A stretch of DNA of 64,000 nucleotides, taken from the NCBI RefSeq assembly GCF_057098645.1, contig NZ_JBXSPU010000003.1. The stretch is one strand, 5' to 3'. Below are positions 23,256 to 26,200 of this stretch, one piece after another. The position numbers were made by a program. This stretch comes from a plasmid. Every line of letters starts with the position of its first letter. Positions within the stretch are counted from its first letter, which is position 1.

Positions 23256-26200
23256 TAACGAAAGTATTTTAGCGGGCATGAAAATGGCAAATAACGGTCA
23301 AACATCGTGGCGTTGACACCGGTACTCATAGGAAACTGCCTCCACATCAATACAGGTTCTCTGTACATGTCAGAAATCAGTAGCCCAGCACTACTGGCAC
23401 CAGGTATTCCGCCTACTACAGTTCCGGCAATAACACTGGTCGAGTTGATCCTGGCATCTACACCGACCCTGATTTGCCACCAAATGATCCTGAATAAAAA
23501 CGGTATTTACACACAAAACACTGCACCACTTAACCTGGATTCAAATGATAATAATATAGAGGCCACATTATAATGCTTAAATTAGAACTGATAATTTTGC
23601 CGTTGCTGGCATTTTTAGGTCCATCCAACATTACAAATGCATCGACTAAAACCCCGATACCGTCGTCCCAGCTATCTGATGCCAAAACTGGGGTTAACTA
23701 TGAATTTATTACTATTGCTGCAAATTACGTCAACGGAATGTGGCTTGTTGATGGTCGACAAAGACCAGTAATTAAAACAAGCATGACTAAGCGTAACTAT
23801 CTTCAGATTGAAAACGACTCTGCTTCAACTCCTTTAAATCTTGTAATACCCAAAATTGAATTTTCCATCATTGCAAAAAATGGCGTGTTTATATCAAAAT
23901 TTATCTCCCTTGATGAAGATGCATCCGGGAAACGAATTCTCTGGTTAGAACCTGGTTCCAGCATGACAATTTCATTCGTCAATGATCTATCCAGTACCCC
24001 GTTACAGGCGTTAGTGTCCGTAACAAAGCAGAAAAAAGAGGTTATTGCCATTTTTGGCCCAGATCAGGGTAAAAAATTCACCCTGCCCCTACCGTCAGAT
24101 TCACAACAATCGTCAATTGACTATGTCCCCTCTCCAGAAATCGCATTACGTATCAATGCCCCCAAAAAACTTCAACCCGCTATCGCAATCCCGGAGGACG
24201 CTAGTGCATCTTTATTACCTTCACATACCTACAAGATCAGAGCGGCAGAAAAAGTAAGGACTTTTAAATTTTCGTCGTTCGTTTGGGTTGGAAAGCGTAA
24301 CAACCTCCTCGGTGGTTCAGATTATTTCACCAAAGAGTTGAAAATTTACCCAGGAGAAAACTTCGATATCAGTACCATACAGAAAACGACTATGAGGACT
24401 GAAAATGATTAAAGTTTCAGCATTTATTCTTACCTTACTTGTGACTGGATGTCAGTCGGTTGGAAGCAAAATTGCAGTCCTCCCTTCGGTAGGGTTCGAC
24501 CCTATAATGAGCAACAGAACTGAAGCCTACACCGACGGAAAAGTTACTTTTCTGATTGAGAGTTCAGGCACTGATGTCTGGTTACTCGCCAAGAATGGGA
24601 CCAAAGAATTTATTGAGTTGTCTGATCTGAATCTCGGCGGGAGTCGTTGCACCTATTCGTCACGTGGAAAACAGTTGATATCACCTAGTTCAGTTACAAT
24701 TTTTACGGTGCCCACAGTTGGTTTACTTGGTCTTTGTTACGATAACAATGACCAATTAACATTTATTAATAACTCATTTAAGAACATCTCACAGTCTTCA
24801 CGAGATGGACTCACATTGCCATTACTGTTCAGTATTAAATATAAATTCCCAGGTTCATTTGATTCCAAACAAATTGTAGTCACTCAATCATTTGATTTAG
24901 AATTTTTGCAAAAGGAGCAATCATGAAATATATATTGACCGTTTTGTGTATTTTTTTCTGCCAGACTGCAAGTGCTTACCCTTATCGCATTTACACTGCC
25001 CCAGAAGGTGCAATTGTGAAAAATATACTTACTAATGAAGTGATCGGGAAAACACCGGTTGAAGTTGATGTCAGCAATACTGAAGCTGGATCAACTTTCG
25101 GAATTTCAATGTATCGTCATGAGAATGTAGCTATTAAAATTTTCACAGTAATGCCAAATGCAGAAAATAATTTTACTGTTTCTGGTCCAGACGTTGCCAC
25201 TATGTCTTTACCGGGTAAGGCCCCGTTAAACGTGACCAATGACAGTAATGCAGCAGCGGTTCATATAGATCTAAGACCTTTTCTGTCTGAACCGGCCCAT
25301 CACCCTGTTCAATAACACTTCTAGGCCCCAATCTTTGGGGCCTGCTTAACAATACCGTATATGTTAAAACCCATCATTATCAGATAGTTAAGATATTTTT
25401 TGCTATTGATTTCTTTTAGGACTTGGTAATGCGTAGACTAAATAAAAGCGTACATGAATAATTTCATCCGCATCTAATGATGCGGATATTTTTTGATTTT
25501 AATTATTCATTTCGCTCAGTTTTGATTTTATAAACTTCTCAATTTCGTCAATTAATTCTCGGTTCATTCTATTAAACTCAAAACGGATTTTACGCCCCGA
25601 GGAACTTTTGCTAATTCTTGCATATTTATCTTTATTAGTAAAAGTTGCCAATTCACGTGTATCCCAACCTTTGCTAGGTGGTTTAATATCAAGTTTTTCA
25701 ACTACCGTTGTAATCTTCTCCATTACGGTTTTCTGTGCTTCAGCAATATCAGAAATATCCAGATCTCGAATTTCCTCACGTGTATTCTCAACAACTTCTT
25801 CAAGAGAAAATAAATTCTTCTCTATATATTTTTGAAGTCGGAATAGGCGATTGTAATAAGAATTCGGAATAGCTTCATAGTCAGGAAACAGTGCAATAAG
25901 AGTGCTGTTAATCTTTGCAGCCTGAACTCGCTTAGAGACGGACACGTGACTGATACCATGATAGTTTGCAAGCTCTTCATTGGTAACAAATCCATGCTCT
26001 TCCATTTCCCTTAAATACTTTAAACCTACTTCACGATATGAAAAGCGTCGAGAAGTTTGTGTTGCTGATATGATGGAATTAATATCATCTGCGTTAACAT
26101 CATCAGGCAAAACCCATAATGGCAATTCTTTTGCTGATTGAATGCAACAGAAACGCCTGCGGCTACCTTCTATTAGCAGATACACTCCGTTCCGCTTAAC

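What the first reader, a model, noticed from the sequence alone, without database searches (positions are those of the whole stretch)
23573..25315. Operon of three translationally coupled secreted proteins of unknown function
Three consecutive ORFs with overlapping stop/start codons each begin with a signal peptide, the middle one with a lipobox. They sit between the IS and the parAB operon and are followed by a terminator. Small exported proteins in transfer/partition regions are candidates for entry exclusion or surface functions, but nothing in the sequence identifies them.
Basis: inference. Interest (0 to 1): 0.35.

Follow-up and report, generated by a model that had tools for sequence, protein, structure and literature searches.

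The report
IncHI1 plasmid entry-exclusion (Z) operon
These three genes are the already-studied eexB, orf017 and trhZ genes of the "Z operon" of R27-type IncHI1 resistance plasmids, which keeps a cell that already carries the plasmid from receiving it again and supports efficient transfer; in this copy an IS21 element has cut the operon's first gene.

Summary
Three + strand ORFs (23573-24412, 24405-24926, 24923-25315) overlap by 8 and 4 nt, and each begins with an export signal. The middle one has a lipobox (VTGC).

They are not unknown. The window is the Tra2 transfer region of an R27-type IncHI1 plasmid. ORF1 and ORF3 are 100% identical in protein to R27 R0016 and R0018, and ORF2 differs from R0017 by K3R. 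A published R27 gene table names R0015 trhO (phosphodiesterase), R0016 eexB (exclusion protein), R0017 lipoprotein and R0018 trhZ. [quoted passage not shown]

The unit therefore has four genes. Here an IS21 copy (21188-23318, CCGG duplication) splits trhO. That junction is absent from 72,556 plasmids and 5,426 E. coli genomes.

New, modest additions:
- The eexB-lipoprotein-trhZ trio stays together in relatives down to 28% identity.
- eexB and orf017 evolve 3-7 times faster than their neighbours (dN/dS 0.33 and 0.26, against 0.05-0.08).
- EexB is predicted to be a copper-less two-domain cupredoxin-like protein resembling SufI.
- TrhZ carries a sub-threshold PEGA motif.

Verdict: already known, low interest.

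The parts
20118..20466 (+). Intergenic region between parM and trhO, which are transcribed divergently. It should hold the Z-operon promoter. A weak sigma-70-like match lies at 20361-20389.
   Evidence: Gene layout. The promoter-like site comes (9 of 12 matches, no better than shuffles), so the position is inferred only. Regulation by TrhR/TrhY and HtdA is from PMC7366339.
20467..21187 (+). 5' part of trhO (R27 R0015), a calcineurin-like metallophosphoesterase and the first gene of the Z operon. It is truncated by IS21.
   Evidence: Joining 20467-21188 to 23324-23573 gives a 323-aa protein identical to R27 R0015. Pfam Metallophos matches at E 9e-5. The name trhO (Z), phosphodiesterase, comes.
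21188..23318 (+). IS21, 2131 bp, with istA at 21289-22461 and istB at 22458-23258. It lies in the same orientation as the operon. The 4-bp target duplication CCGG is at 21184-21187 and 23319-23322.
   Evidence: Break points come from alignment to intact plasmids and junction sequences. Copies 100% identical are annotated 'IS21-like element IS21 family'. Pfam rve and IstB_IS21 match. The junction is absent from PLSDB and from complete E. coli genomes.
23319..23573 (+). 3' part of trhO. Its TAA stop overlaps the eexB ATG by 1 nt.
23573..24412 (+). eexB (R27 R0016), 279 aa. An exported exclusion protein, predicted to have two cupredoxin-like beta-sandwich domains (residues 41-166 and 184-279) and no copper ligands.
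24405..24926 (+). orf017 (R27 R0017), 173 aa. A lipoprotein of the Z operon with no assigned function. The lipobox is VTG-C16 with Gln at +2 (outer-membrane sorting predicted), and Cys82 and Cys111 are invariant.
   Evidence: One substitution (K3R) against R27. 'Lipoprotein (Z)'. Invariant G15, C16, C82 and C111. The AF2 model is poor (pLDDT 51).
24923..25315 (+). trhZ (R27 R0018), 130 aa. A small exported protein with a PEGA-like N-terminal half (P27-E-G-A30).
   Evidence: 100% identical to R27 R0018. Named trhZ (Z). Homologs are named TrhZ by their sources. Pfam PEGA is sub-threshold: 13.5 bits against a cut-off of 20.8, matched in 8 of 24 homologs.
25322..25344 (.). A 10-bp GC-rich hairpin immediately after the trhZ stop, with no T-run on either strand.
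   Evidence: -17 kcal/mol, z -3.5. Not reported by the terminator scan.
25466..25497 (+). Intrinsic-terminator-like hairpin plus T-run on the + strand, just before the converging parB stop at 25499. This is the likely end of the Z transcript.
   Evidence: -15.4 kcal/mol, z -4.1.

Best explanation
The three ORFs are the distal genes of the IncHI1 (R27-type) Z operon, trhO-eexB-orf017-trhZ. This is an accessory operon of the Tra2 conjugation region, lying between the two partition modules.

Shown or published:
- EexB is an exclusion determinant, reported to fractionate with the outer membrane.
- Exclusion by the IncHI1 Eex proteins needs them in both donor and recipient.
- trhZ and trhO raise transfer frequency.
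- The operon is activated by TrhR/TrhY and repressed by HtdA.

Inferred here:
- All three products are Sec-exported envelope proteins made in fixed proportion through translational coupling.
- EexB is a soluble, copper-less, two-domain cupredoxin-like protein rather than a beta-barrel or lipoprotein.
- Its outer-membrane association is therefore probably indirect. The most plausible anchor is the co-evolving outer-membrane lipoprotein orf017.
- The conserved first domain would dock to the conjugation or envelope machinery.

In this window IS21 has split trhO. This should inactivate trhO and may lower expression of the three downstream genes.
For: Identity and synteny:
- The region is 100% DNA-identical to many IncHI1 plasmids and 97.5-99.9% identical to R27.
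- ORF1 and ORF3 are identical in protein to R27 R0016 and R0018. ORF2 is R0017 with K3R.
- Gene order is parR-parM | trhO-279-173-130 | parB-parA-...-trhC.

Names:
- The PMC7366339 supplement gives R0015 trhO (Z) phosphodiesterase, R0016 eexB (Z) exclusion protein, R0017 lipoprotein (Z), R0018 trhZ (Z), R0019 parB and R0020 parA.
- The gene order parA, eexB, parM also appears in bioRxiv 10.1101/334409.

Function:
- EexB is outer-membrane located and thought to act in surface exclusion. EexA and EexB are needed in both donor and recipient (PMC11493245; PMC8923210).
- trhO and trhZ increase transfer frequency (PMC11628540).
- R0015-R0018 are induced 8- to 17-fold in the htdA mutant at 25 C.

Module conservation:
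- The eexB-like, lipoprotein and trhZ-like trio, with overlapping or abutting starts, sits next to trhC/traV/trbI or parAB in relatives at 41%, 36% and 28% EexB identity.

Evolution:
- dN/dS is 0.33 for eexB and 0.26 for orf017. It is 0.05-0.08 for parM, trhO, trhZ, parB and parA, with dS 0.53-0.54 for eexB and orf017 and 0.48-1.19 for the neighbours.
- Divergence is concentrated in the EexB linker and second domain.

Fold.
Against: - The primary exclusion paper (Gunton et al. 2008, Plasmid 59:86) and Lawley et al. 2003 could not be read. The eexB = R0016 mapping rests on one supplementary table plus gene order.
- The location of eexA is not shown by any tool result. From memory only, eexA is R0018/trhZ.
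- No exclusion or localisation experiment can be done here.
- The orf017-EexB partnership and the domain roles are inference. dN/dS below 1 is compatible with relaxed constraint.
- The orf017 structure model failed.
- Signal-peptide cleavage was not predicted with a dedicated tool.
- Whether IS21 is polar is unknown. It lies in the operon's orientation, and no + strand terminator-like site was found between istB and eexB, so read-through is possible.
Confidence: 0.85

Rival explanations
1. The trio is mainly a donor-side accessory of the mating apparatus, acting in envelope remodelling, pilus function or mating-pair stabilisation. On this view exclusion is a secondary consequence of the same proteins being present in a recipient.
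For: - trhZ and trhO are described as raising transfer frequency.
- The operon is co-regulated with the transfer operons by TrhR/TrhY and HtdA.
- In distant relatives the trio sits beside trhC-traV-trbI rather than beside partition genes.
- TrhZ is the most conserved of the three.
- The Eex proteins are required in the donor as well.
Against: - EexB is annotated and cited as an exclusion factor.
- The fast divergence of eexB and orf017 fits a recognition or specificity role better than a structural one.
- The two views are not mutually exclusive.
Confidence: 0.3
2. In this particular plasmid the three genes are effectively silent remnants. IS21 separates them from the Z promoter, so the plasmid is defective in exclusion and transfers poorly.
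For: - IS21 (2131 bp) splits trhO about 2.4 kb upstream of eexB.
- The IS right end carries TTGACA at 23313-23318, but no usable -10 lies 16-18 bp downstream (sequence; none).
- The junction is unique among 72,556 plasmids and 5,426 E. coli genomes, as expected of a recent and possibly deleterious event.
Against: - The three ORFs are intact and identical to functional R27 alleles.
- IS21 lies in the same orientation as the operon, and no + strand terminator-like site was found between istB and eexB, so read-through is plausible.
- An ORF starting at 23307 still ends on the stop that overlaps the eexB ATG.
Confidence: 0.3
3. The proteins are ordinary periplasmic or redox housekeeping proteins, for example a multicopper oxidase, carried passively on the plasmid.
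For: The predicted EexB fold matches laccases, CueO and SufI.
Against: - EexB has no Cys and a single non-conserved His, so it cannot form a copper centre.
- There are no Pfam, NCBIfam or PDB sequence hits.
- The family has only 25 representatives among 1.84 billion proteins, and every homolog examined lies in an IncHI-like or MOBH/MPF_F conjugative context.
Confidence: 0.02

Closest known systems
Z operon of IncHI1 plasmid R27 (R0015 trhO, R0016 eexB, R0017 lipoprotein, R0018 trhZ)
   Same: Same genes, order, overlaps and flanks. The proteins are 100%, 99.4% (K3R) and 100% identical.
   Different: In this window IS21 interrupts trhO. The parA-trhC repeat arrays also differ from R27 in length.
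TraT, surface exclusion lipoprotein of F-like plasmids
   Same: It acts from the recipient's outer membrane to reduce redundant conjugation. EexB is compared with it in PMC11493245.
   Different: No TraT family match to any of the three proteins. EexB has no lipobox and is predicted to be a two-domain cupredoxin-like protein, whereas TraT is itself the lipoprotein. IncHI exclusion needs the Eex proteins in the donor too.
TrbK of pKPC_UVA01 and the inner-membrane entry-exclusion proteins TraS, Eex and EexC
   Same: TrbK of pKPC_UVA01 resembles the R27 system in being required in both donor and recipient.
   Different: Those are small inner-membrane proteins or lipoproteins that usually target VirB6-like TraG. 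None of the three proteins here has an internal membrane-spanning segment.
SufI/FtsP and multicopper oxidases (cupredoxin-domain proteins)
   Different: Sequence identity is 10-17%. EexB has two domains, not three, and no metal ligands. This is a fold resemblance only and gives no evidence of shared function.
PEGA domain (Pfam PF08308)
   Same: TrhZ residues 21-52 align to the start of the PEGA model. The literal P-E-G-A motif is present, with P27, G29, G42 and P45 invariant.
   Different: The score is below Pfam's cut-off (13.5 against 20.8 bits), and only the first half of the model is matched.

Membership tests
IncHI1 Z operon (R27 R0015-R0018) | Sequence identity to the R27 genes | tested here: met
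   ORF1 = R0016 at 279/279. ORF2 = R0017 at 172/173. ORF3 = R0018 at 130/130. The reconstructed trhO = R0015 at 323/323.
IncHI1 Z operon (R27 R0015-R0018) | Position in Tra2 between parM/parR and parB/parA, transcribed opposite to the flanking genes | tested here: met
   The numbering R0012-R0020 matches gene for gene.
IncHI1 Z operon (R27 R0015-R0018) | Intact four-gene transcription unit | tested here: not met
   IS21 at 21188-23318 splits trhO. The three distal genes are intact.
EexB exclusion protein | Expression in the recipient lowers entry of IncHI plasmids, with outer-membrane localisation | not testable with these tools
   Taken from the literature. The primary paper is not held.
EexA exclusion protein | Identity of the eexA gene with one of these ORFs | tested here: inconclusive
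   No tool result places eexA. 'Eex' appears only as eexB in the R27 gene table. From memory of the Gunton 2008 abstract, the Z operon is 015, eexB, 017, eexA, which would make eexA = R0018/trhZ. This is unverified.
Bacterial lipoprotein (ORF2) | Lipobox [LVI][ASTVI][GAS]C after a hydrophobic signal, conserved in homologs, with no Asp at +2 | tested here: met
   V-T-G-C16. G15 and C16 are invariant in 16 sequences. The +2 residue is Q, R, S, A or T and never D. Acylation itself was not tested.
Multicopper oxidase / cupredoxin superfamily (ORF1) | Cupredoxin Greek-key beta-sandwich domains | tested here: met
Multicopper oxidase / cupredoxin superfamily (ORF1) | His/Cys/Met copper ligands | tested here: not met
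   0 Cys and 1 His (H218). No His, Cys or Met among the invariant or near-invariant columns.
PEGA domain (ORF3) | Score at or above the Pfam gathering threshold | tested here: not met
   13.5 bits against a cut-off of 20.8. 8 of 24 homologs match at E up to 1, with a best E of 0.011. The motif is present.
TraT / TraS / TrbK exclusion families | Sequence family match, or multi-pass inner-membrane topology | tested here: not met
   No Pfam or NCBIfam hit. No hydrophobic segment beyond the signal peptide.
IS21 | istA and istB genes, about 2.13 kb, TG..CA ends, 4-bp target duplication | tested here: met

The most novel reading that the evidence does not exclude
The three exported proteins would form one outer-membrane-tethered recognition complex that is conserved across IncHI-like and MOBH elements. 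The orf017 lipoprotein would anchor a copper-less, cupredoxin-fold EexB, with TrhZ (possibly EexA) as the conserved third subunit. Exclusion would work by like-with-like contact between the donor and recipient copies. The rapidly evolving EexB second domain and orf017 would set the exclusion group. This would be a structurally new kind of surface-exclusion machine and would give orf017 its first function.
Probability: 0.25. Interest if true: 0.45.

Novelty: already known. Interest (0 to 1): 0.2.

Why it matters
IncHI1 plasmids spread multidrug resistance in Salmonella Typhi and E. coli, and exclusion shapes which plasmids can coexist in a cell. The genes themselves have been described since 2003-2008, so the finding adds no new system.

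The useful by-products are:
- A testable structural picture of EexB as a cupredoxin-like protein with a conserved first domain and a variable second domain.
- Evidence that the uncharacterised lipoprotein orf017 co-evolves with EexB and always travels with it.
- A natural IS21 knockout of trhO that could be used to study Z-operon polarity and its cost to transfer and exclusion.

Tried and rejected
- **Domain and family searches.** Pfam, NCBIfam and PADLOC scans of the three proteins gave only chance-level or sub-threshold hits. Profile searches against all PDB sequences gave nothing below E 0.2.
- **Structure of orf017.** AlphaFold on the lipoprotein with 16 homologs gave an unusable model (pLDDT 51), so no fold search was run on it.
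- **AlphaFold database search.** The afdb50 library was unavailable.
- **Relatedness among the proteins.** hhalign among the three families, between the two EexB domains and between the TrhZ halves found nothing (probabilities of 2% or less). The proteins are not paralogs of one another.
- **RNA elements.** Rfam found no RNA family in 19000-31500.
- **Primary papers.** Gunton 2008 and Lawley 2003 are not held. Other papers mentioning eexA were irrelevant or only cited the title.
- **Names from sequence databases.** The clusters carry 'periplasmic protein', 'lipoprotein' and 'TrhZ', but never 'EexB' or 'EexA'.
- **IS21-flank hybrid promoter.** Rejected. TTGACA lies at the IS end, but there is no -10 at a spacing of 16-18 bp.
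- **The 80-90% identity group.** I first assumed these plasmids were IncHI2. The example I fetched is typed IncHI1B by MOB-suite, so I make no claim about IncHI2.
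Full report
**Observation**

The three ORFs exist exactly as described: 23573-24412 (279 aa), 24405-24926 (173 aa) and 24923-25315 (130 aa), all on the + strand. The sequence shows an 8-nt overlap (ATGATTAA) and a 4-nt overlap (ATGA).

Each protein has a single N-terminal hydrophobic segment and no later membrane-spanning stretch. Plausible AXA-type cleavage sites are TNA|S in ORF1 and ASA|Y in ORF3. ORF2 has the lipobox V-T-G-C16, and Shine-Dalgarno-like motifs precede each start. In alignments of homologs the signal regions stay hydrophobic while varying in sequence, and G15-C16 of ORF2 are invariant. No dedicated signal-peptide predictor was available.

The hairpin right after the last stop (25322-25344) is stable but lacks a T-run. 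A canonical terminator-like hairpin plus T-run on the + strand lies at 25466-25497, just before the converging parB.

**What it is**

The 2.3-kb region is 100% identical to many large conjugative enterobacterial plasmids, and 284 PLSDB records carry it. The surrounding annotation reads trhU-trhW-trhF-rsp-...-htdA | parR-parM | metallophosphoesterase-279-173-130 | parB-parA ... trhC-traV-htdT-trhB. This is the Tra2 region of IncHI plasmids.

R27, the IncHI1 prototype, has the same layout and aligns with the window at 97.5-99.9%. ORF1 and ORF3 are identical in protein to the R27 genes, and ORF2 differs by K3R.

The supplementary gene table of Gibert et al. 2020 (PMC7366339) lists:
- R0012 htdA
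- R0013 ParR-like
- R0014 ParM-like
- R0015 trhO (Z), phosphodiesterase
- R0016 eexB (Z), exclusion protein
- R0017 lipoprotein (Z)
- R0018 trhZ (Z)
- R0019 parB
- R0020 parA

This maps one-to-one onto the annotated order. [quoted passage not shown] An IncHI comparative preprint also places eexB between parA and parM. Homologs of ORF3 are named TrhZ by their sources. So ORF1 = eexB, ORF2 = orf017 (lipoprotein, no assigned function) and ORF3 = trhZ.

From memory only, the Gunton et al. 2008 abstract gives the operon as '015, eexB, 017, eexA'. That would make ORF3 also EexA. I could not retrieve that paper, and no tool result confirms it.

**The operon is really four genes, and here it is broken**

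Aligning the window to an intact plasmid gives window 9183-21188 = L001 1-12006 and window 23318-37600 = L001 12001-26283. The junctions show TGT...ACA ends and a CCGG duplication, which places a 2131-bp element at 21188-23318. It encodes IstA and IstB and is 100% identical to elements annotated as IS21.

Removing it restores a 323-aa metallophosphoesterase identical to R27 R0015/trhO. The IS points the same way as the operon.

No record among 72,556 plasmids or 5,426 complete E. coli genomes carries this junction, so it is a private event. trhO is certainly inactivated. Whether eexB, orf017 and trhZ are still expressed is open:
- No + strand terminator-like site lies between istB and eexB.
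- No hybrid promoter forms at the IS end.

**What is known about function (literature)**

- EexA and EexB appear to be both exclusion factor and exclusion target, because they are needed in donor and recipient (PMC11493245; PMC8923210; PMC12282955).
- trhO and trhZ increase transfer frequency (PMC11628540, summarising Lawley 2003).
- The Z operon needs TrhR/TrhY and is repressed by HtdA. R0015-R0018 rise 8- to 17-fold in the htdA mutant at 25 C. In wild-type R27 they are unresponsive to temperature.

**What I could add**

1. *The families are tiny.*
   - A profile of EexB homologs found only 25 representatives among 1.84 billion proteins.
   - Word-based searches found 17-34 clusters per protein.
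   - None has a Pfam, NCBIfam, PADLOC or PDB sequence relative.

2. *The trio is a conserved module.*
   - EexB homologs at 41%, 36% and 28% identity are each followed by a lipobox protein of 166-173 aa and a TrhZ-like protein of 129-137 aa, with overlapping or abutting starts.
   - The trio lies beside parAB (L007) or directly beside trhC-traV-trbI (L003-L006).
   - The phosphoesterase is present in L006 and L007 but is only a remnant in L005.

3. *Evolutionary rates differ sharply within the operon.* These figures are against a lineage with dS of about 0.5-1.2 (pCF2206-1).

   | Gene | dN/dS |
   |---|---|
   | eexB | 0.33 |
   | orf017 | 0.26 |
   | parM | 0.06 |
   | trhO | 0.06 |
   | trhZ | 0.07 |
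   | parB | 0.08 |
   | parA | 0.05 |

   - Within eexB the ratio is 0.22 for residues 41-166 and 0.48 for residues 167-279.
   - Identity across 19 homologs shows the same split, with domain 1 conserved and the linker plus domain 2 variable.
   - All values are below 1, so this shows fast and correlated divergence, not proven positive selection.

4. *Fold of EexB.*
   - With a 20-sequence alignment, AlphaFold2 gave a confident all-beta model (pLDDT 77.5, pTM 0.74). The signal region with the N-terminal tail and residues 167-183 are disordered.
   - Foldseek's best hit is E. coli SufI (E 1e-10).
   - EexB has no Cys, one non-conserved His and no conserved Met, so it cannot bind copper.
   - It also lacks a lipobox, and it is not predicted to be a beta-barrel.

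5. *TrhZ and orf017.*
   - TrhZ carries a literal PEGA motif (residues 27-30), with sub-threshold Pfam PEGA hits in 8 of 24 homologs.
   - The orf017 model was unusable.
   - orf017 has two further invariant cysteines (C82, C111), which fits a periplasmic disulfide.

**Mechanism proposed**

Shown: the genes' identity, their export signals, the coupling, the module conservation and the rate pattern.

Published: exclusion activity, outer-membrane fractionation, the requirement in both donor and recipient, the effect on transfer frequency, and the regulation.

Inferred: EexB looks like a soluble exported protein yet fractionates with the outer membrane. The adjacent lipoprotein is predicted to sort to the outer membrane, is always co-inherited with it, and co-varies with it. 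orf017 is therefore the most economical anchor for EexB. The conserved EexB domain 1 would contact a conserved partner (orf017, TrhZ or the transfer apparatus). The variable linker and domain 2 would determine which incoming donor is recognised. The donor-and-recipient requirement suggests contact between like complexes across the mating junction.

I rate the identification at about 0.9-0.95 and this mechanistic layer at about 0.25-0.35.

**Rivals**

- A primarily donor-side accessory role in mating. This is compatible with the main explanation and not exclusive of it.
- Silencing of the trio in this plasmid by IS21. This is open.
- A housekeeping or redox enzyme. This is rejected by the absence of metal ligands, the restriction to conjugative elements, and the lack of any family match.

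**Verdict**

The finding is real but already known: it is the eexB-orf017-trhZ portion of the R27-type Z operon. 'Unknown function' and 'three-gene operon' were not. Interest is low. The structural and evolutionary observations, and the natural IS21::trhO allele, are small leads rather than discoveries.

Noticed in passing
window 21188-23318 (target duplication at 21184-21187 and 23319-23322): An IS21 copy (2131 bp, CCGG duplication) is inserted in trhO/R0015, in the same orientation as the Z operon. The junction is absent from all 72,556 PLSDB plasmids and 5,426 complete E. coli genomes. The plasmid is therefore probably a recent mutant with impaired transfer.
   Followed up: yes
window 28020-29266 and 30068-30476: Two long tandem arrays lie between parA and trhC: a 52-bp unit repeated 23.6 times and a 54-bp unit repeated 7.6 times, sharing a core (GGGGGTTAAATGCCACG...). 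The many 44-87 aa 'ORFs' listed there are repeat artefacts. The array length differs from R27. The arrays may be partition or incompatibility iterons, but this was not examined.
   Followed up: partly
window 27799-27844: A 20-bp unit (TATGCGTAAACTTTACGCAT, itself palindromic) is repeated 2.3 times just upstream of parA. It is a candidate ParA/ParB operator or centromere-like site.
   Followed up: no
window 23573-24926, and L011 4256-5609: eexB and orf017 have dN/dS of 0.33 and 0.26, while their five neighbours have 0.05-0.08 (dS 0.53-0.54 for eexB and orf017, 0.48-1.19 for the neighbours). In eexB the excess is concentrated in residues 167-279.
   Followed up: yes
L003-L005 around 7700-9900, and L006 2068-4452: In distant MOBH/MPF_F-type elements the eexB-lipoprotein-trhZ trio sits directly beside trhC-traV-trbI, with no parA next to it. 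A weak ParB-HTH gene lies on the other flank. In L005 only the first 40 or so codons of a trhO-like gene survive. The module therefore travels with the secretion-system genes rather than with the partition genes.
   Followed up: partly
protein clusters returned: The exact-sequence look-up put the 173-aa lipoprotein and the unrelated 130-aa TrhZ into the same 90%-identity cluster (265 members). This is probably a clustering artefact, for example a bridging fused or frameshifted gene call. hhalign finds no similarity between the two families.
   Followed up: partly
window 11939-16249 (- strand): A very large ORF (1436 aa) corresponds to the IncHI 'RSP' protein (R27 R0009) at the head of the trhF-trhW-trhU-trhN block. 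Together with the rest of the window, it shows that the window covers the whole of Tra2 plus the replication region beyond 42 kb.
   Followed up: no
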